Assembly (NCBI GenBank): GCA_965219085.1
Contig: OZ244720.1
Location: 1,312,001-1,376,000, forward strand
Direction: 5' to 3'
DNA: 64,000 bases
Origin: Dehalococcoidia bacterium
GTDB taxonomy: Bacteria > Chloroflexota > Dehalococcoidia > UBA2979
The position numbers and the translations under genes are program-made. The notes beneath the pieces are model-generated. The model did no database searches and had not been told where the DNA came from. It saw only the letters and a list, made by a program, of their open reading frames with translations. Positions 33,077 through 42,038 of the stretch are shown one piece after another (the first letter of the stretch is position 1; each line of letters begins with the position of its first letter).

Positions 33077-33409
33077 CTAGGGATCGAGGCCGAGCTGGCG
33101 ACGCCGGGCGTGCTGATGGGCGTGCTGATGGGCGTGCTCGGCAGCGTCGCGGAAGGTCTCACCGCAGTCGGCGCAGACCTCGACGGAGCGGAAGCCGCCG
33201 GCCGGCGCCACACCGGCGATGGACCAGAGCCGCCACTCGTCGAGCGCGCGCTGCTGGGGATCGTCGTCCGTGTCACCGGGCCCGAGTTGCCAGCGGTCCT
33301 TGCGCTTGGTCTCGATGGTCGTGGTGCCGCGCGGGTCGGACGCGTCGCGGTGCTCACAATGCCAGTAGCAGCCCTCGGGGCAGTAGTTGGCGGCGAGCGC
33401 GTCGGTCAT
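33077..33409 (-). CDS. hypothetical Cys/His-rich protein
   Basis: CPEGC..HC and CADC....H.H; TATCAT 7 nt upstream of ATG. Confidence 0.6.
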   Translation of the reverse strand: MTDALAANYCPEGCYWHCEHRDASDPRGTTTIETKRKDRWQLGPGDTDDDPQQRALDEWRLWSIAGVAPAGGFRSVEVCADCGETFRDAAEHAHQHAHQHARRRQLGLDP

Positions 33410-33471
33410 GGCGCGGATGATACGCGGTTCGCGCCGGCAGCGTGGCTGCCTCGGACGTAGCGGCGAGGCGG

Positions 33472-34131
33472 CTACGCCCACTCGCGCGGGCGAGTGAAGG
33501 AGCCGCGGGCGTCCGTCAGCGTCTCCGGGAACTGGCACGCCGCGAGAAGCCTGCGACGCTTCACACTGTTTGTGATGCGCCGATCGAACGTAGCGACATC
33601 CGCGAGTTCCTTGCTCGGACGCCGTGACCGACGACTCCCGCTGCCGTTCAGGATTGGCAGCACCACACCGACGGTGAAGTCAAACCGCGCGCGAACCTGA
33701 CGAATGGGCTCAACAAGATCGGAATCGTTGGACACGACAAGCGCGGCGTCGCAGTCCTGATCGAATGCGTCCAGCAGCAGATGCGTGGCGAGGTTGACGT
33801 CGGTTCCCTTCTCCTCGGTCTTGAGCACGGGGACCCTGCCGCGTCCGTCGGCCCGGACCATCATCGTTCGTGACACCAGGAAGTGGCCGTAGTGAATCGA
33901 AAGATCGGGAAGGGTCCGGAGGGCCCGGATGTACGCCGCCTGTCGGTCCGGCGCCGTTGGATCCCCCGGCAACGGGCGAACCCTTGCCGTGAAGTAACGG
34001 ACACGGCGCACTTCGTCGCGGGGCCCTAGCAACTCGTGGGCTAAGCGCCGGATATCCAACCAGCGGTACGGCTGGCTGCGGAGCGCCCCGTAGTAGAGGT
34101 TGAAGCCATCGACATAGACATTGAAGCGCAT
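33472..34131 (-). CDS. NYN (LabA/DUF88, PIN-fold) domain nuclease
   Basis: YVDGFNLYY, RYFTA, EEKGTDVNLA, SNDSDL. Confidence 0.93.
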   Translation of the reverse strand: MRFNVYVDGFNLYYGALRSQPYRWLDIRRLAHELLGPRDEVRRVRYFTARVRPLPGDPTAPDRQAAYIRALRTLPDLSIHYGHFLVSRTMMVRADGRGRVPVLKTEEKGTDVNLATHLLLDAFDQDCDAALVVSNDSDLVEPIRQVRARFDFTVGVVLPILNGSGSRRSRRPSKELADVATFDRRITNSVKRRRLLAACQFPETLTDARGSFTRPREWA

Positions 34132-34151
34132 GCGGGAGCCCAATACCCGCA

Positions 34152-34206
34152 AGGCCCCCTGACGGGGGCCTCACTACCCAAACGGACGTACCGAGTGGGG
34201 GGGTAC
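34152..34206 (-). ncRNA. candidate structured leader/antitoxin RNA upstream of NYN
   Basis: gtacc-N9-ggtac stem with possible pseudoknot, then aggccccc-gtca-gggggcct hairpin. Confidence 0.4.
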
Positions 34207-34210
34207 AGCT

Positions 34211-34239
34211 ATATTCCAGTGTGCGCGCACCGTTGTCAA
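34211..34239 (-). promoter_or_regulatory. sigma70-like promoter
   Basis: TTGACA-17 bp-GAATAT. Confidence 0.55.
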
Positions 34240-34275
34240 CACACAAAACGGATTATCAGTATCCGGATGGCGCCC

Positions 34276-36210
34276 CTACACCAACGTCACCGGCGCGCCC
34301 ACGCGCTCGGCGACGGCGACCGTCCGGTCGTGCTTCGTCGTGTCGCCGGAGCGGGCCATCGAGACCAACTCGGAGATCTTGTGGCGGCACTCGCCGTTGA
34401 TGTCCTGGTGGCCGCACACGTTGCACGGGTCGCGCTTGCAGTCGAGCGTGATCTCCTCGTTCAGCGTGCGCATCCACTCGCCGCGCAGGAACGCCTTCGT
34501 CGTCGCCGAGTCGACGTGGTCCCACGGCAGTGGCTCCCACAGGTCGCGATCGCGGTGCGCGTAGTCAGCGGGGTCGAGGTCGTGCGTCGCGAAGGCCCGC
34601 TCCCAGATCGACCAGTCGTGGTGCTCCGACCACGCGTCGAACTTCGCGCCCAGCCGCCACGCCGTCTCGATCACGTCGGCGACGCGGCGGTCGCCGCGCG
34701 ACAGCACGGCCTCGAGCAGCGACTTCTCCGGGTCCTCCCAGCTGAACTGCACGCCCGCGCGCTTGCAGCCCTCGCGCAGGATGCGGTGGCGGCGACGCAG
34801 CGTGCCGGCGTCGCACTGCGCGAGCCACTGGTACGGGGTGTGTGCCTTCGGGATGAAGTTCGAGGTCGAGACGCGCACCCGCGCGCGGCCGCCCTGGTGG
34901 CGCTTGCCGATCGCCTTCACCTCGGAGGCGATGCGGACAATCTCCTCGATGTCGAAGTCGGTCTCGGTCGGCTGGCCGACCATGAAGTACATCTTGATGC
35001 TCGTCCAGCCGTTGCCGAAGGCGTGCTCGGCGGCGTTGAGCAGGTCCTCCTCGGTGACGAGCTTGTTGATCGTGTTGCGCAGCCGCTGCGAGCCCGCCTC
35101 CGGGGCGAGCGTGAGCGTGTGCTTTTTGCCGCGCGCCACCGCGTCCGCGACCTCGACCGAGAACGAGTCGACGCGCGTCGAGGGCAGCCCGATGCGCAGA
35201 CCGCGGTCGCCGTAGGCGTCCATCAGCGCGTGCACCATCGGCACGATGTCGCGGTGGTCGGTGGTCGAAAGCGACATCAGCGAGAGCTCGTGGTAGCCGG
35301 TGTTGTCGAGCAGCTCGCCCGCAGCCGCGACGATCTCCTCGACGGAGCGTTCGCGGGTCGGGCGGTAGATCATACCGGCCTGGCAGAAGCGGCAGCCCTG
35401 CGTGCAGCCGCGCTGGATCTCGATCACCGCGCGGTCGTGGACCACCTCCATGAACGGCACGATCGGCTTCGTCAGCGGCGGCGGCAGCACCTGCACCACG
35501 CGGCGCGTGATGCGGTCCGGCGCGGCCGCGTCGACCGCCCGCGTCCCCGCGAGCGCGCCGTCGGCGTCGTAGCTCGGCTCGTACAGCGAGGGTACGTAGA
35601 CGCCGTCGAGGGCGGCGAGGGCGCGATGCAGCTCCTGCCGCGAGCCGCGGCCGGCGCGCTTCCAGTCGCGCACGAAGTCGACGAGCTCGTCGATGAGCTC
35701 CTCGCCCTCGCCGAGCGCGAAGGCGTCGAAGAACGGCGCCATCGGCTCCGGCTCGAGCGCGGCCGAGCCGCCGCCGACGACGATCGGGGCGTCGTCTGCG
35801 CGGTCGGCGCTGTGGATGGGGATGCCGCCGAGTTCGAGCAGGTTGAGGACGTTGGTGAAGCACACCTCGTACGACAGCGAGATGCCGAGCACGTCGAACT
35901 CGTGGAGCGCGTGCCGCGTCTCCAGCGAGCGCAGCGGCTCGTCGTGCTCGCGCAGCAGGTCCTCGAAGTCCGTCCACGGCGAGAAGACACGCTCGGCGAG
36001 CGCGTCCTCGCGGCGGTTGACGATGTCGTAGAGGATGCCGAGCCCGAGGTTGGACATGCCGAGGTCGTAGAGGTCCGGGTAGGCAAGCGCGACTCGCACC
36101 TCGGGCGCCCCGGGCCCGTCCCAGTCCTTGGCGATCGAGTGCAGCTCGCCACCGGCGTAGCGCGCAGGTCGCTGGACGCGGTCGATGAGCTCGTCGTAGG
36201 TGGTGGGCAT
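34276..36210 (-). CDS. radical SAM protein (TIGR03960-like)
   Basis: PARY.GGE, YPDLYDLGMSNLG, RGCTQGCRFCQAG, APEAGSQRLR, LPWDHVD. Confidence 0.93.
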   Translation of the reverse strand: MPTTYDELIDRVQRPARYAGGELHSIAKDWDGPGAPEVRVALAYPDLYDLGMSNLGLGILYDIVNRREDALAERVFSPWTDFEDLLREHDEPLRSLETRHALHEFDVLGISLSYEVCFTNVLNLLELGGIPIHSADRADDAPIVVGGGSAALEPEPMAPFFDAFALGEGEELIDELVDFVRDWKRAGRGSRQELHRALAALDGVYVPSLYEPSYDADGALAGTRAVDAAAPDRITRRVVQVLPPPLTKPIVPFMEVVHDRAVIEIQRGCTQGCRFCQAGMIYRPTRERSVEEIVAAAGELLDNTGYHELSLMSLSTTDHRDIVPMVHALMDAYGDRGLRIGLPSTRVDSFSVEVADAVARGKKHTLTLAPEAGSQRLRNTINKLVTEEDLLNAAEHAFGNGWTSIKMYFMVGQPTETDFDIEEIVRIASEVKAIGKRHQGGRARVRVSTSNFIPKAHTPYQWLAQCDAGTLRRRHRILREGCKRAGVQFSWEDPEKSLLEAVLSRGDRRVADVIETAWRLGAKFDAWSEHHDWSIWERAFATHDLDPADYAHRDRDLWEPLPWDHVDSATTKAFLRGEWMRTLNEEITLDCKRDPCNVCGHQDINGECRHKISELVSMARSGDTTKHDRTVAVAERVGAPVTLV

Positions 36211-36311
36211 GGGGCGGGCCTCGCGGGTCGCGGTGCGTTCGCGGTTAGCCGATCGAGGGTAGTCGGGGGGTGGGTAGCGGTTCAAGCGTCCCCGGGGCGC
36301 GTCGGGTGCGA

Positions 36312-37094
36312 CTACCTTCGTTCGAGCAGCTCGTCCTGGATGCCGGTGATGACCCGGGGGGAGACGGTGAACTCGAACATGTCGAAGAGCTCGATGGCCA
36401 GATCCCGTGCAAGGGCACGCGCCTCAGATGCAAGTTTGACGAGACCTATATCCCGGCGCAGCTTCACGCAGTCCACAGAGGCAGTGAAGCTCGTGGAGGG
36501 CGGACGCGTCCAGTCGGCCACCAAGCGGCGGCTACGAGCATCGGCCAGATCAATCTCCAATTCGATTCCGGCACCGTAGTCCGCAGAGGCTGTGAGCCGA
36601 CGGGAGAACTCGACGATTTCGTACAGTGTCCACACGCTGGGCTCGATAAGAAGCACACGCTCGCGGGAGGCCTGTCCCCTCTGGGGATGCACGATATCGT
36701 CCCAGCCCTCTCGGCCCGAGCTAAACCATGGCGATCTTCGTTCGGCTGGCGGCGGCGAGCGGTATGCAATGTCCTCCTGAAGGGCCCGGTAGTGGATAAA
36801 CTGCCCTGTCCGCATGAGCCGCCACACCTCGCGCCGCCAGTCCTGATGGACTAATGCCTCCCAACCGTCTTCGACAGGTGCCTTCCACTCGTTGCCCCGC
36901 CCGCTGACCGGGACATACGGATAGGGGTTGCCGCGGAGTAGCACGGCGCTCTTTGCTACAGCGTCGCCGCAGTCCGAAGGCAGCTTGAAGCGCTGGGCCG
37001 CCGACTCTGGAACGATTCGCACGCGCCAGTGCCCGATGTCGCGAATCGAGGCGAGGACCCCCTCGCGGCTCGGCGGCGCGACCGTGGTCGTCAC
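36312..37094 (-). CDS. hypothetical protein coupled to AlbA_2 gene
   Basis: 260-aa ORF; GTG overlaps upstream stop; HWRV..P, LRG..YP, EVWR...GQF. Confidence 0.75.
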   Translation of the reverse strand: MTTTVAPPSREGVLASIRDIGHWRVRIVPESAAQRFKLPSDCGDAVAKSAVLLRGNPYPYVPVSGRGNEWKAPVEDGWEALVHQDWRREVWRLMRTGQFIHYRALQEDIAYRSPPPAERRSPWFSSGREGWDDIVHPQRGQASRERVLLIEPSVWTLYEIVEFSRRLTASADYGAGIELEIDLADARSRRLVADWTRPPSTSFTASVDCVKLRRDIGLVKLASEARALARDLAIELFDMFEFTVSPRVITGIQDELLERR

Positions 37095-37717
37095 AGTAGA
37101 TCCTCGATCTCCCGGTCCAGAGCTTCCCGCTCCCCGGCGGCCCGCTCCCCAGTGGCTGCGGGCAGCAATCCGAGAGCACGGAAGCGCTCGATCCGACGTT
37201 CTACAGCCTGCTCGATGATATCCCTCGTGTCCCGGTATGTGTGGATCTCCTCGGTACGAGGCGTGCCCGCTGGCCTGATGTAGACCGCACCCTCGCGTAG
37301 TGTGCGCGACCCTCCGTCAGCCTGCTTGCACACTGTCGGGGCATCGACGACCGCATCGACCTCTACGACTACGAATAGCATGTCGGCGAGTTCGCCCTTG
37401 ATCGTGCGCATCTCGAGCGGCGGATCGGCGTAGCGGGCGGTTTGCGCCGCGACGTTGTCGGGCACGAACGACTCATAGTGTCTTGCCGACATCCCAACGG
37501 GCCTGTACGTGCCGTCGAGGTTCTCCCGGACACCGATCACGACCGCGCCGCCATCGCGCGTGTTCGACATGGCCATGAATGTCCGGATGAGCCCGAGCCG
37601 CGCTTCGCGGTCTTCCCAGTCCAACGACTGCTTGTATTCGAGGCCGCGCGTCTCGAAGCCGAGACGCAGGTACTCGGCTTGGCGCACGGGCAGCGGCTCG
37701 GTAACTGGCAACGTCAT
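37091..37717 (-). CDS. Schlafen/AlbA_2 domain protein
   Basis: E...LEYKQS, AMSNTRDGGAVVIGV, YIR. Confidence 0.88.
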   Translation of the reverse strand: MTLPVTEPLPVRQAEYLRLGFETRGLEYKQSLDWEDREARLGLIRTFMAMSNTRDGGAVVIGVRENLDGTYRPVGMSARHYESFVPDNVAAQTARYADPPLEMRTIKGELADMLFVVVEVDAVVDAPTVCKQADGGSRTLREGAVYIRPAGTPRTEEIHTYRDTRDIIEQAVERRIERFRALGLLPAATGERAAGEREALDREIEDLL

Positions 37718-39640: not shown

Positions 39641-40267
39641 ATGACCACAGTGCCTTCGCGCCCGGGCAATCGGATCTATTTGTTCGTCGACTTTGCGAAC
39701 CTCGAGTTGACCATGCGCGACCACGCCGGCCCCGGCTTCCGGTTCGACTGGAGCGTGTTCCCGGAGTGGTTGGTCCGCGAGGCTGCGGGGCTTGTCCAAT
39801 TGCAGTCATGGTCCTACGAGGCGGTCAGCGTCTACGTCTCCTACGACCCCTCGAATCCGAACTCGGGTCGCTTCCGCGAGTGGACCCGAACGACGCTCAA
39901 CCGGATGCCCGGTGTCCACGTCATCGAGAAAGAACGGCGGCGGCGCCTCCGCCCACCGCGGTGTCCTCACTGCCACAACGACATCCAGACATGCCCCACC
40001 TGCGGCCGAGAGCCGCGCGGCATGCAGGAGAAGGGCATCGACACGCAGATCGTGACCGACATGATCAAGCTGGCGTGGGAAGACGCATACGACGTGGCCG
40101 TCCTCGTGTCGTCCGACGCCGACTTCATTCCCGCAGTCGACTTCCTGCATGACAGGGGGCGCAAGGTGATCCAGGCGGGGTTCCGAGGCACCGGGAACGA
40201 CCTGGCGGCACAGTGCTGGGCGTCCTTCGATCTCTTCGAGCGCCGCGAGGAGTTCCAGCGCCCGTAG
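39641..40267 (+). CDS. NYN domain nuclease with internal CxxC-x5-CxxC
   Basis: FVDFANL, QEKGIDTQI..D, SSDADF; CPHC..CPTC insertion. Confidence 0.92.
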   Translation: MTTVPSRPGNRIYLFVDFANLELTMRDHAGPGFRFDWSVFPEWLVREAAGLVQLQSWSYEAVSVYVSYDPSNPNSGRFREWTRTTLNRMPGVHVIEKERRRRLRPPRCPHCHNDIQTCPTCGREPRGMQEKGIDTQIVTDMIKLAWEDAYDVAVLVSSDADFIPAVDFLHDRGRKVIQAGFRGTGNDLAAQCWASFDLFERREEFQRP

Positions 40268-40349: not shown

Positions 40350-42038
40350 ATGACCACGGAGCCGTATACGCCTGACACCGCACGATGGGACGCCTTCGTT
40401 GAGTGGGCGCGGCGCTTCTTCGAGTGGGACGAGTTCGAAGAGGCCGAGCGGAACTACAAGCTGGAACTTGGAACGGCTCTGGCGGAAGCACGGGACACCT
40501 TCATCAGTGAACGTCCTGAATGGCGTGAGTTGCTGCGTCAAGTTGTGGGTTCGCCGAACGTCCCTGTCTTTAGGATCATGATCTTTCGGTTCATCGATCT
40601 CCTGCAGACCGACACCGCAATGGTCGCCGACGCATTGCGTTACCTCTGGTCGACAGGCGACTCGGTAACGCGACGGGAAAGAGTGCGTGGATTCGTCGGG
40701 GGCCTCAGTGGCGCGCCGCAGCCCATCGGGACGGCGGAGAGCCTTGCGGCGTTCCTGCTGTTGGCGCGGGACCCCACCTCCAATCCGTTCTACATGTGGA
40801 GCCCGTTCCGAACTGCGTACCAGATGACCGGTTACCCGCTCGTTAGTGTCCGGGCGCCACCGGCAGACAAGTACGGGCATGCTGTCGACTTCCTCGATGA
40901 GTTTATTCGTCAGGCGGCGAACCGAGACCTCGCGCTCCGCGACCGGCTCGATGCGCAGTCTCTCGTGTGGTGTGTCACGCAGTCGACGCCCGAGGAGTGG
41001 GATCCGCAGACTTTGGTGAAACTTGAAGGATACCGCGAGTCGCGCGGTGATCCCCCGACCAATCCTCCGGACGGACCGGAAACGCCCTGCGGCGATACGA
41101 CGACGGCGCCTGACTGGCCCGGGTTGGCCGCAAGGCTGCTCTGGGAGACCGGCCACCTGGAGGAGATCGTCGCGGACCTGGAAGACAAGCGGCAGATGAT
41201 CTTCTACGGGCCGCCGGGCACCGGGAAGACCTTCGTCGCGAAGGCGATAGCAGAGGAGTATGCGAGGGTGGGCGGCGGCTTCGAGATCGTGCAGTTCCAT
41301 CCCTCGTACTCCTACGAGGACTTCGTCGAGGGCTTCCGGCCCACCCTCGAAGGCGGACGAGCGGGCTTCGCGCTCAGGCAGGGCCCGCTGAAGCGGATTG
41401 CGGCCGCCGCGGCAGCGAATCCTGACGCGACCTATGTGCTCGTGATCGACGAACTCAACCGGGGCAACGTCGCCAAGGTGTTCGGCGAGCTGTACTTCCT
41501 GCTTGAGTACCGCCGAGAGGATATCCAGCTCCAGTACAGCGAGGGCGAGCGATTCCGGCTGCCTGAGAATCTGCTCTTCATCTGCACGATGAACACCGCC
41601 GACCGGTCGATCGCGCTTGTGGACGCTGCGCTCCGGCGGCGCTTCTGGTTCCACGGCTTCTTCCCCGACGAGGCACCGATCGAGGGGCTGCTTCGGCGCT
41701 GGCTCACGGACAACCAGCCTGGCGCAGAGTGGGTCGCCGACCTCGTCGACCGCGCCAACGAGCACCTCAACGATCGCGATGCGGCGATCGGCCCCAGCTA
41801 CTTCATGGACGACAAGGCCGAACTGAATGACGCGCGTGTAAGCCGCATTTGGCACCGCGCCGTCTGGCCATACATCGAGGAACAGTGCTACGGCGAGGAC
41901 GAGAAACTCGCGTCGCTGAGATACGAGAGCCTGCTCACCGAAGTCAACAGCGGTGCCCCAGCGCCTGCCGACGCTCCAACCGACGCCGAGCGCGAATCCG
42001 GCGGGGAAGCGGACGCGGATGCCGACGACCCGTCTTGA
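40350..42038 (+). CDS. mcrB: McrB-like AAA+ GTPase (type IV restriction)
   Basis: GPPGTGKT, QFHPSYSYEDFVEG, IDELNRG, MNTADRS, DAALRRRF. Confidence 0.95.
   Translation: MTTEPYTPDTARWDAFVEWARRFFEWDEFEEAERNYKLELGTALAEARDTFISERPEWRELLRQVVGSPNVPVFRIMIFRFIDLLQTDTAMVADALRYLWSTGDSVTRRERVRGFVGGLSGAPQPIGTAESLAAFLLLARDPTSNPFYMWSPFRTAYQMTGYPLVSVRAPPADKYGHAVDFLDEFIRQAANRDLALRDRLDAQSLVWCVTQSTPEEWDPQTLVKLEGYRESRGDPPTNPPDGPETPCGDTTTAPDWPGLAARLLWETGHLEEIVADLEDKRQMIFYGPPGTGKTFVAKAIAEEYARVGGGFEIVQFHPSYSYEDFVEGFRPTLEGGRAGFALRQGPLKRIAAAAAANPDATYVLVIDELNRGNVAKVFGELYFLLEYRREDIQLQYSEGERFRLPENLLFICTMNTADRSIALVDAALRRRFWFHGFFPDEAPIEGLLRRWLTDNQPGAEWVADLVDRANEHLNDRDAAIGPSYFMDDKAELNDARVSRIWHRAVWPYIEEQCYGEDEKLASLRYESLLTEVNSGAPAPADAPTDAERESGGEADADADDPS

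What the first reader, a model, noticed from the sequence alone, without database searches (positions are those of the whole stretch)
33472..34239. NYN nuclease 1 with promoter, pseudoknot-capable RNA and hairpin: candidate RNA-antitoxin system
Seen (minus strand): TTGACA-17-GAATAT, then GUACC-CCCCCACUC-GGUAC-GUCCGUU-UGGGUAGUG, in which the stem loop can pair with downstream UGGG/AGUG (H-type pseudoknot possible), then an 8-bp hairpin AGGCCCCC-GUCA-GGGGGCCU 20 nt before the ATG of a stand-alone NYN with intact acidic residues and no adjacent protein antitoxin. Known: promoter, pseudoknot RNA, terminator, endoribonuclease is the layout of type III TA loci (ToxIN, CptIN, TenpIN), whose toxins are not PIN/NYN fold. 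Inference: a type III-like module built on NYN. Caveats: no tandem repeats and a poor U-tract.
Basis: partly seen in the sequence, partly recalled or inferred. Interest (0 to 1): 0.78.

Follow-up and report, generated by a model that had tools for sequence, protein, structure and literature searches.

The report
Conserved small RNA beside NYN nuclease
A short two-hairpin RNA gene with its own promoter sits next to a stand-alone NYN nuclease gene here and in relatives from many bacterial phyla, plasmids and a prophage, which points to an undescribed RNA-nuclease pair of the toxin-antitoxin or phage-defence kind.

Summary
The leader is a divergent member of a conserved ~60-nt RNA: a C-rich 5' tail, hairpin 1 with a UUCG-type loop, a GGG-YGCGA junction, and a GC-rich terminator hairpin. 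In 78 of 80 homologous loci this RNA lies within 150 nt of the NYN gene. It is upstream on the same strand in 62, divergent in 9 and convergent in 7. All 17 base pairs covary, and most copies have their own sigma-70-type promoter. A model built without the window finds one hit in 64 kb, at this site. No Rfam family matches and no paper found describes it. The protein is PADLOC's HEC-09, a candidate defence gene that showed no defence when tested. No protein partner is conserved. Best reading: a self-contained, mobile RNA-plus-nuclease module with a type III toxin-antitoxin layout. Antitoxin function is inferred, not shown.

The parts
34239..34265 (-). Terminator-like hairpin CGGATACTGATAATCCG plus a T-rich tail. 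It lies just after the stop of the upstream radical SAM gene (34276..36285) and abuts the -35 box, so it would insulate the module from upstream transcription.
   Evidence: Terminator scan; sequence; upstream gene identified as TIGR03960 radical SAM.
34234..34239 (-). -35 box TTGACA of the RNA promoter.
   Evidence: Sequence. Best hexamer pair TTGACA-17-GAATAT scores 9 of 12. The same position carries a promoter in family members: 56 of 88 copies score >=9/12, against 1.8% of random segments.
34211..34216 (-). -10 box GAATAT (3 of 6 to TATAAT). The predicted transcription start is about 34204-34206.
   Evidence: Not called by the stricter scanner.
34139..34209 (-). Small RNA element, shown as the covariance-model match. 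The predicted transcript runs from about 34205 to about 34141, about 60-65 nt.
   Evidence: R2 was built without the window sequence. It gives 27.8 bits and E 5e-5, the only hit in the window. R1, which did include the window, gives 35.6 bits.
34178..34198 (-). Hairpin 1: CCACUCGG - UACGU - CCGUUUGG. Six of 8 model pairs are standard, with two central mismatches. It is equivalent to the family's 8-bp stem with a cUUCGg loop.
   Evidence: cmsearch alignment; the MFE fold gives the same hairpin; family covariation.
34173..34177 (-). Junction GUAGU. It corresponds to the conserved GGG-YGCGA junction of the family and has diverged here.
34149..34174 (-). Hairpin 2, the terminator-like stem GUGAGGCCCCC - GUCA - GGGGGCCUUGC (11 bp). 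The tail lacks a U run.
   Evidence: MFE; CM alignment. In the family, 9 of 9 pairs covary and 99.1% of cells are paired. T run is 2 here, against >=4 in 55 of 87 family copies.
34132..34148 (-). Short spacer between hairpin 2 and the ATG, too short for a separate promoter.
   Evidence: Family spacer is a median 21 nt, range 10-61, in 61 loci.
33472..34131 (-). NYN nuclease gene, 219 aa, of the HEC-09 type. The start is the ATG at 34131, not the TTG at 34152 listed mechanically.
   Evidence: Pfam NYN E 8.9e-10. PADLOC HEC-09 E 3.8e-44, full length. Homologues start at MRxNVYVDGFNL. Model pLDDT 92.2. Foldseek hits VPA0982 and the MARF1 NYN domains. Invariant residues D8, E107, D111, N135, D138 and near-invariant D136.

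Best explanation
The region is a self-contained two-part module: a small structured RNA gene and a NYN ribonuclease gene of the HEC-09 type.

The RNA is made from its own sigma-70-type promoter. It has a C-rich single-stranded 5' end, a first hairpin, a conserved junction, and a GC-rich second hairpin that acts as a terminator in most relatives. In the window, as in most relatives, the nuclease gene starts about 20 nt after that hairpin. It can therefore only be transcribed by read-through, which would give much RNA and little nuclease.

Most likely the RNA acts in trans on the protein as an RNA antitoxin of the type III kind. It would bind the nuclease through its conserved single-stranded nucleotides and hairpin scaffold and hold it inactive. 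When transcription stops, through phage takeover or loss of the plasmid or island that carries the module, the RNA would decay and the nuclease would cut cellular or invading RNA.

Shown here: the RNA's conservation, covariation, strand, promoter, strict linkage to this NYN family, lack of a protein partner, and mobile contexts. Inferred: expression as a discrete RNA, toxicity of the nuclease, direct RNA-protein binding, and the trigger.
For: 1. Linkage. 78 of 80 loci encoding relatives of 41-53% identity from many phyla carry the RNA within 150 nt of the gene. The other two are cut by contig ends. All 8 plasmid or prophage loci examined have a hit at E <= 0.04, with 7 adjacent and one about 490 nt upstream.

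2. Structure. All 17 pairs show changes on both sides. 95.0% of cells are paired, against 36-52% when partners are slid, and 0 of 500 shuffles reach the observed values. Frequent G-U pairs make the fold strand-specific.

3. Own promoter. 56 of 88 copies match the consensus at >=9/12, against 1.8% of 1,760 random segments. The -10 box ends a few nt before the motif, whatever the orientation to NYN.

4. Trans action. The RNA lies upstream on the same strand in 62 loci, divergent in 9 and convergent in 7. The divergent class forms one clade and the convergent class needs at least 2 changes on the NYN tree.

5. Dosage layout. The spacer from hairpin 2 to the start codon is a median 21 nt. A T run of >=4 follows hairpin 2 in 55 of 87 copies. 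Extra whole RNA copies occur in 6 loci, up to three in L072.

6. No protein partner. The largest cross-locus neighbour cluster spans 3 loci, and Pfam on 129 of 147 flanking ORFs shows no recurrent family.

7. Active-looking nuclease. NYN fold with conserved acidic residues.

8. Context. The module occurs on a 3.46-kb E. coli plasmid, on conjugative plasmids, next to a TrwC relaxase, and in the integrase-repressor region of a Mycobacterium prophage. The protein matches PADLOC's HEC-09, a candidate defence family found embedded in Hma systems.

9. Specificity. The window's second NYN gene (39641..40267) has no such RNA.

10. Precedent. AvcID shows that an sRNA can directly inhibit a non-ToxN toxin and be released by transcription shut-off (passages of PMC10511110).
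Against: No experiment or computation here shows toxicity, RNA-protein binding or RNA instability.

The one published test of HEC-09 found no protection against any phage tried (passages of bioRxiv 10.1101/2024.01.29.577857). That paper does not say whether the cloned fragment included the RNA, and its supplements were closed.

The RNA has no tandem repeats and no supported pseudoknot, unlike ToxI-type antitoxins.

Tight linkage and RNA excess fit an RNA cofactor equally well.

The window copy is divergent (27.8 bits), has two mismatches in hairpin 1 and lacks a U-tract, so termination here may be weak.

DNA of the closest relatives (64-91% identity) could not be fetched, so conservation inside the window's own clade is untested.

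Many flanking genes are ordinary metabolic genes, not defence genes.
Confidence: 0.5

Rival explanations
1. The RNA is an obligatory cofactor, scaffold or sentinel of the nuclease rather than its inhibitor. The two would form a ribonucleoprotein in which the RNA positions, activates or licenses NYN, or is itself the sensor whose cleavage or modification by a phage factor triggers the enzyme.
For: The near-obligate co-occurrence, own promoter, trans-compatible arrangements and absence of a protein partner fit a cofactor as well as an antitoxin. The conserved single-stranded nucleotides look like a protein recognition surface. HEC-09 showed no defence in the one test, which could reflect a missing or non-functional RNA partner in the heterologous host.
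Against: The variable parts of the RNA are base-paired stems closed by stable tetraloops, so no free variable segment is available to act as a guide. Placing a terminator between the RNA and the nuclease gene, and duplicating only the RNA, are typical of antidote-over-poison dosage. NYN domains such as MARF1's are not known to need an RNA cofactor; this last point is recalled, not tested here.
Confidence: 0.2
2. The element is only a cis-acting leader. It would be a transcription attenuator or translation-masking structure that sets NYN expression, perhaps autoregulated by NYN cleavage, with no function as a separate RNA.
For: In 62 of 78 loci, and in the window, the terminator-like hairpin sits a median 21 nt before the start codon, so it must gate NYN transcription. 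In some loci the start codon follows the U-tract directly, so the ribosome site is next to a strong hairpin.
Against: In 16 of 78 loci the same RNA, with its own promoter, is divergent from NYN or convergent with it, and so cannot be its leader. The NYN tree needs at least three rearrangements, and each kept the RNA. A specific pairing of the 5' tail with the ribosome-site region is no better than with spacers from other loci or shuffled spacers.
Confidence: 0.1
3. The RNA is an antisense regulator of the type I kind that base-pairs with the NYN mRNA to block translation or promote decay.
For: In 7 genome loci, one plasmid and one prophage the RNA is convergent, and its 3' end meets or overlaps the NYN stop codon by up to 5-6 nt. 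This resembles 3'-overlapping type I pairs. The C-rich 5' tail could in principle pair with G-rich ribosome sites.
Against: There is no overlap at all in the 71 loci where the RNA lies upstream of the gene, 62 on the same strand and 9 divergent. The conserved parts of the RNA are the same in all arrangements, while ribosome sites vary or are absent. The tail-spacer pairing test was negative: own mean 1.33, against cross 1.72 and shuffled 1.35.
Confidence: 0.07
4. The feature is a DNA-level site, such as a recombination or transfer hairpin or an ordinary bidirectional terminator, that merely travels with the gene.
For: Hairpin 2 is nearly palindromic and scores weakly on the opposite strand (7 partial hits). 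The module is mobile.
Against: A promoter sits at a fixed distance upstream of the motif on the motif's own strand. G-U pairs are frequent; for example UG occurs in 39 of 83 sequences at one pair, and these would be A-C mismatches on the other strand. A T run follows hairpin 2. Conserved unpaired nucleotides are not explained by a plain terminator.
Confidence: 0.03

Closest known systems
Type III toxin-antitoxin systems ToxIN, CptIN and TenpIN (features recalled from knowledge, not read here)
   Same: The order is promoter, small RNA, terminator, then an endoribonuclease gene expressed by read-through. There is no protein antitoxin. The modules are mobile and occur on plasmids.
   Different: The toxin has a NYN (PIN-like) fold, not a ToxN/AbiQ fold. 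The RNA is a single two-hairpin unit with its own terminator, not tandem 34-40-nt repeats. No pseudoknot is supported. The RNA gene can be divergent or convergent.
AvcID (PMC10511110, passages read)
   Same: A non-repeat noncoding RNA directly inhibits a toxin outside the ToxN family. It is activated when transcription shut-off lets the RNA decay, and it acts in phage defence.
   Different: The AvcID toxin is a deoxycytidylate deaminase, not a nuclease. The RNAs are unrelated. For the NYN module nothing has been shown experimentally.
HEC-09, PADLOC candidate defence family (bioRxiv 10.1101/2024.01.29.577857, passages read)
   Same: It is the same protein family: full-length HMM match at E 3.8e-44, with a NYN/MARF1-like fold and conserved aspartates.
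   Different: That work treats HEC-09 as a single protein gene. Its main text contains no instance of 'ncRNA' or 'non-coding'. The associated RNA gene is what this analysis adds. The window copy is not visibly embedded in an Hma system.
MARF1 NYN domain and VPA0982 (PDB 6fdl, 5yaa, 2qip)
   Same: They are the best structural matches of the predicted protein model.
   Different: They are eukaryotic mRNA-decay factors or uncharacterised proteins with no dedicated RNA partner gene. This protein has an extra C-terminal segment of about 60 residues.
Type I toxin-antitoxin pairs with convergent, 3'-overlapping antisense RNAs (recalled)
   Same: The convergent arrangement seen in 7 genome loci, one plasmid and one prophage.
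   Different: The overlap is at most a few nucleotides of coding sequence. Most loci have no overlap. The toxin is a 200-aa nuclease, not a small membrane peptide.

Membership tests
NYN domain nucleases (Pfam PF01936) | Profile match above the curated cut-off | tested here: met
   39.7 bits against a cut-off of 24.2, E 8.9e-10.
NYN domain nucleases (Pfam PF01936) | PIN-like fold with conserved acidic active-site residues | tested here: met
   Model pLDDT 92.2. Foldseek matches VPA0982 (E 2e-8) and the MARF1 NYN domains. D8, E107, D111, N135 and D138 are invariant and D136 is near-invariant in 40 sequences. Which residues are catalytic is inferred from MARF1 as quoted.
HEC-09 (PADLOC candidate defence system) | Match to the HEC-09 profile | tested here: met
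   PDLC04163, E 3.8e-44, profile positions 3-202 of 203.
HEC-09 (PADLOC candidate defence system) | Location embedded in an Hma or other multi-gene defence system | tested here: inconclusive
   Three neighbouring ORFs of the window gave no PADLOC hit. The wider window was not scanned against PADLOC. Flanks of related loci are mostly ordinary genes, with some integrase, RM, TIR, PIN or HNH genes.
HEC-09 (PADLOC candidate defence system) | Demonstrated anti-phage activity | not testable with these tools
   The published test found none.
Type III TA (ToxIN/CptIN/TenpIN) | Toxin of the ToxN/AbiQ endoribonuclease family | tested here: not met
   The protein is NYN by Pfam and by fold.
Type III TA (ToxIN/CptIN/TenpIN) | Antitoxin made of tandem direct repeats | tested here: not met
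   No tandem repeat in the leader. The family unit is single. In 6 loci whole units are duplicated 115-150 nt apart; the upstream sequence printed for the copies in L053, L069, L071 and L072 shows a TTGACA-type box at the usual distance.
Type III TA (ToxIN/CptIN/TenpIN) | Order promoter - RNA - terminator - toxin gene, with the toxin read through | tested here: met
   Met in the window and in 62 of 78 loci with the RNA, with a median spacer of 21 nt. Not met in the 16 loci with divergent or convergent RNA.
Type III TA (ToxIN/CptIN/TenpIN) | RNA pseudoknot | tested here: not met
The conserved fold is two simple hairpins.
Type III TA (ToxIN/CptIN/TenpIN) | Toxin processes and binds the RNA, and the RNA neutralises the protein | not testable with these tools
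   The complex predictor does not take RNA, and no experiment was possible.
Any Rfam 15 RNA family | Match at the gathering score | tested here: not met
   The window and 20 loci gave only tRNAs. Permissive scans of three instances gave nothing better than E 0.38, far below gathering scores.
Type I TA (antisense RNA) | Extended complementarity between the RNA and the toxin mRNA | tested here: not met
   The RNA lies upstream of the gene, with no overlap, in 71 of 78 loci. Pairing of the 5' tail with the start region is not above controls.

The most novel reading that the evidence does not exclude
The RNA is not an antidote but an integral RNA subunit or sentinel of a minimal two-part defence effector. 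A ~60-nt structured RNA would license a NYN nuclease, or its cleavage or modification by a phage factor would fire the enzyme. That would make this a widespread ribonucleoprotein immune module. It would also explain why the protein gene, treated as a single-gene system, showed no defence.
Probability: 0.2. Interest if true: 0.9.

Novelty: new variant of a known kind. Interest (0 to 1): 0.8.

Why it matters
If the RNA neutralises or controls the nuclease, this would be an RNA-protein toxin-antitoxin or defence family built on a PIN-like NYN fold. It would also bring in a new RNA class that is absent from Rfam 15. The family is widespread: more than 7,000 protein clusters, several phyla, 445 plasmid records and a prophage.

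It would turn an 'inactive' candidate defence gene, HEC-09, into a two-component system with a clear hypothesis to test. A natural 3.46-kb E. coli plasmid carries the module, so the test can be done in a laboratory strain.

It also gives genome annotation a simple rule: a small RNA gene should be called next to these NYN genes.

Tried and rejected
1. The GUACC/GGUAC stem and the CACU/AGUG pseudoknot arm are not conserved.

2. Three-way junction. In the window's minimum-energy fold, the 5' GUACCC pairs with GGGUAU after hairpin 2. Pairing of the 5' tail with the spacer and start region was tested across 61 loci. It was no better than with other loci's spacers or with shuffled spacers, so this was rejected as a family feature.

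3. Known RNA families. Rfam gave nothing at gathering or permissive thresholds.

4. Conserved protein partner. All-against-all comparison of flanking ORFs found none. Pfam on the longest flanking ORFs found none either. 129 of 147 ORFs were scanned, because the first attempt exceeded the size limit.

5. Orphan RNA copy in L074. It precedes a 228-aa ORF with no Pfam family and no profile similarity to NYN, and remains unexplained.

6. Literature. Searches for NYN with type III TA, RNA motif and covariation, RNA antitoxin, or sRNA, terminator and defence found no description of this pair. One search on PF01936/DUF88/LabA was swamped by an unrelated drug acronym. The bacterial ncRNA-discovery papers listed show 0 occurrences of 'NYN' in their main text. 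Their supplements were not read.

7. Closest relatives. DNA around the closest relatives (64-91% identity) therefore stayed unchecked.

8. Careful tree. The careful tree search did not finish, so the quick IQ-TREE tree is reported.
Full report
**What is in the window.** All coordinates in this paragraph are on the minus strand.
- The TIGR03960 radical SAM gene (34276..36285) ends and is followed by a terminator-like hairpin with a T-rich tail at 34265..34239.
- Directly after it come TTGACA (34239..34234), a 17-nt spacer and GAATAT (34216..34211).
- A structured stretch follows, then the hairpin AGGCCCCC-GUCA-GGGGGCCU (34171..34152).
- After 20 nt comes the ATG at 34131 of a 219-aa ORF that ends at 33472.
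- The ORF lister starts this ORF at a TTG at 34152. Homologues begin at MRxNVYVDGFNL, so the ATG is the true start.
- The protein matches Pfam NYN. Its predicted model is confident (pLDDT 92.2) and is closest to VPA0982 and the MARF1 NYN domains.
- It keeps the conserved acidic residues.
- There is no tandem repeat in the leader.

**The family and the RNA.** The protein has more than 7,000 relatives of 205-220 aa (7,794 of 8,000 scored candidates at E <= 0.001).

Printing the 110 nt upstream of each gene showed the same motif again and again. It consists of a TATAAT-like box, AUAUCCCCCC, a variable stem closed by UUCG, GGG-YGCGA, a GC-rich stem, then UCUGCUUUUU, and shortly after that the start codon.

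An alignment of 49 instances plus the window gave 17 consensus pairs, 16 with compensatory changes. A covariance model from that alignment (R1) found 95 matches at E <= 1 in the 80 loci plus the window. Of these, 88 are full length and 7 are partial matches to the near-palindromic second hairpin on the opposite strand.

On the 83 best matches from the loci alone, 95.0% of cells are paired, against 36-52% when partners are slid. All 17 pairs change on both sides, and 0 of 500 shuffles reach any observed measure. That alignment is fitted to the model, which favours the structure somewhat. The independent MAFFT alignment gave the same picture.

**Is the window's leader a member?** Model R2 was built from those 83 sequences without the window. 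It gives exactly one hit in the 64-kb window on either strand: 34139..34209 (-), 27.8 bits, E 5e-5. E-values from these models are rough.

In the window copy, hairpin 1 is CCACUCGG-UACGU-CCGUUUGG with two internal mismatches. The junction has diverged to GUAGU. Hairpin 2 is intact. The tail lacks a U run, with a longest T run of 2, while 55 of 87 family copies have a run of 4 or more.

The other 'pseudoknot' pairing, CCCA/UGGG, is simply the base of conserved hairpin 1.

**Linkage and arrangement.** In 78 of 80 loci the RNA lies within 150 nt of the NYN gene.
- In 62 loci it is upstream on the same strand. One of these, L007, has a second copy downstream that precedes a truncated NYN remnant.
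- In 9 loci it is upstream and divergent.
- In 7 loci it is downstream and convergent, meeting or overlapping the stop codon.
- The two loci without a copy are cut by contig ends exactly where a copy would be. L038 has 48 nt upstream and shows part of hairpin 2. L066 has 20 nt downstream and is sister to a convergent locus.

On a quick maximum-likelihood tree of 79 proteins, the divergent class is one clade (support 98) and the convergent class needs at least two changes. L072 and L073 were left out of this tree, and the careful search did not finish. Phyla are mixed within well-supported clades, as expected for a mobile gene.

Six loci carry two or three whole RNA units in tandem (L009, L053, L069, L070, L071, L072).

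**Promoter and terminator.** Whatever the orientation to NYN, the 50 nt upstream of the motif hold a sigma-70-type promoter.
- 56 of 88 copies match TTGACA-N16-19-TATAAT at 9 or more of 12 positions, against 1.8% of 1,760 random segments from the same DNA.
- 71 of 88 match at 8 or more, against 5.6% of random segments.
- The -10 box ends mostly 6-10 nt before model position 6.
- The window scores 9 of 12, at the same place.

In the 61 same-strand loci measured, the distance from the end of hairpin 2 to the aligned start codon is a median 21 nt, range 10-61. This leaves no room for a separate promoter, so NYN must be read through the RNA's terminator.

At the aligned start position, 30 of 61 loci have ATG and 14 have GTG or TTG. 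Seven have ATC, ATT, ATA or CTG. The rest start a codon or two away.

**No protein partner, mobile context.** All-against-all comparison of flanking ORFs found no cluster shared by more than 3 loci. Pfam on the longest flanking ORFs showed a mixture of housekeeping genes, with scattered integrases, type I RM specificity subunits, and TIR, PIN, HNH, Mrr and KilA-N proteins. No family recurred. 129 of 147 ORFs were scanned.

Relatives occur on 445 plasmid records, 140 of them covering at least 80% of the protein, but on only 3 of 50,697 phage records.

R2 finds the RNA in all 8 plasmid or prophage loci examined:

| Record | Locus | Bits | Position |
|---|---|---|---|
| 3,461-bp E. coli plasmid | L081 | 39.1 | adjacent to NYN |
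| Paenarthrobacter plasmid | L082 | 56.3 | adjacent, convergent |
| Phaeobacter plasmid | L087 | 27.8 | adjacent |
| Leptospira plasmid | L083 | 20.2 | adjacent; match cut by the record origin |
| Xanthomonas plasmid | L084 | 18.3 | adjacent |
| Granulicella plasmid | L086 | 15.6 | adjacent |
| Mycobacterium abscessus prophage | L089 | 61.5 | adjacent, convergent, between integrase and repressor |
| Thiothrix plasmid | L088 | 20.6 | about 490 nt upstream |

The E. coli plasmid is present in 4 of 5,426 complete E. coli genomes. RefSeq annotates only the protein there.

**What is known.** The protein matches PADLOC's HEC-09 over its full length (E 3.8e-44). The source preprint (bioRxiv 10.1101/2024.01.29.577857; passages read) describes HEC-09 as a NYN/MARF1-like candidate found embedded in Hma systems. 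It gave no protection against any phage tested. The preprint's main text has no occurrence of 'ncRNA' or 'non-coding'. Its supplements are closed, so I cannot tell whether the cloned fragment held the RNA.

No Rfam 15 family matches the RNA. Full-text searches found no paper linking NYN to an RNA antitoxin, a type III system or an upstream RNA motif. Supplements of the large ncRNA-discovery papers were not read, so a listing under another name cannot be excluded.

AvcID shows that an unrelated, non-repeat sRNA can directly inhibit a non-ToxN toxin and release it on transcription shut-off (PMC10511110, passages).

**How it most likely works.** Several things are shown here. There is a separately promoted, structured, strand-specific small RNA. 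It is inherited together with this nuclease gene through at least three rearrangements and across phyla. There is no protein partner. Usually the RNA is placed so that its terminator throttles nuclease transcription.

From this I infer that the RNA acts in trans on the protein, most probably as an RNA antitoxin. It would be made in excess and lost quickly when transcription stops, freeing a ribonuclease. I put this at about 0.5.

The main rival is an RNA cofactor or sentinel of a ribonucleoprotein effector, at about 0.2. A purely cis-acting leader is contradicted by the 16 divergent or convergent loci. Antisense pairing is not supported. A DNA-level site is unlikely, given the promoter, the G-U pairs and the T run.

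**Comparison and novelty.** The module works like a type III system in layout but is not a member of ToxIN, CptIN or TenpIN. It has the wrong toxin fold, no repeats and no pseudoknot. The protein family is already catalogued as HEC-09. The RNA gene and its obligate pairing with the nuclease appear to be undescribed. I therefore rate it a new variant of a known kind, with high interest because the hypothesis is directly testable in E. coli.

**Controls and limits.**
- The window's second NYN gene (39641..40267, Pfam E 1.4e-14) has no such RNA, so the RNA is specific to the HEC-09 type.
- The closest relatives' DNA, the metagenome collection and the viral collection stayed unchecked.
- Nothing here measures expression, toxicity or binding.

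Noticed in passing
window 39641..40267 (+) and 40350..42038 (+): A second, distantly related NYN gene (Pfam PF01936, E 1.4e-14) is followed by an AAA_5-type ATPase gene. The RNA model finds nothing next to it. It may be a different two-gene system.
   Followed up: partly
window 37091..37717 (-) and 36312..37094 (-): A Schlafen AlbA_2-domain ORF overlaps by 4 nt a 260-aa ORF that has no Pfam, NCBIfam or PADLOC match. The pair lies directly upstream of the radical SAM gene and looks like a two-gene operon of unknown function.
   Followed up: partly
window 33077..33412 (-): A 111-aa ORF with Cys-rich motifs and a His-rich C-terminal stretch starts 60 nt after the NYN stop. It has no family match, and no counterpart is conserved next to NYN in the 80 related loci.
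   Followed up: partly
L072:3001-3645 and L073:3001-3657: Two NYN genes from different phyla carry an in-frame TAG at the same aligned codon, just after DSDLxxPI[E/R]. Other loci have I, M, V, L or Q there. L072 is also the locus with three tandem RNA copies. This could be inactivation of a harmful gene, read-through or coincidence.
   Followed up: partly
L007:3669-3738 and downstream: A second RNA copy lies after the NYN gene and is followed by a reading frame that begins like NYN (ETITNVCIDAF...) and then breaks off. This looks like a decayed tandem duplicate of the whole module.
   Followed up: partly
L074:328-398, with ORF 455-1141: An extra RNA copy (52.9 bits) lies 2.6 kb upstream of the NYN module. 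It precedes a 228-aa ORF with no Pfam family and no profile similarity to NYN, and it is next to a MazE-type antitoxin gene. The RNA may occasionally pair with another protein.
   Followed up: partly
L002:2779-2851 and L006:2242-2312: tRNA genes lie within about 150-700 nt upstream of the RNA-NYN module, as at integration hot spots.
   Followed up: no
L081 (NZ_CP091696.1, 3,461 bp): A very small E. coli plasmid carries the RNA-NYN module, a VbhA-family antitoxin gene and a helix-turn-helix gene. Identical DNA is found in 4 of 5,426 complete E. coli genomes and in Serratia rubidaea plasmids.
   Followed up: partly
L004, L019, L025, L026, L056, L061 and others (start of NYN): At the position aligned with the NYN start, 7 of 61 loci have ATC, ATT, ATA or CTG and no nearby canonical start codon. 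This suggests rare initiation codons and very weak translation.
   Followed up: no
L008:1-2829 and L024:2-2830: In two Acidobacteriota loci the divergent RNA-NYN module lies directly after a TrwC/MobF-type conjugative relaxase gene.
   Followed up: partly
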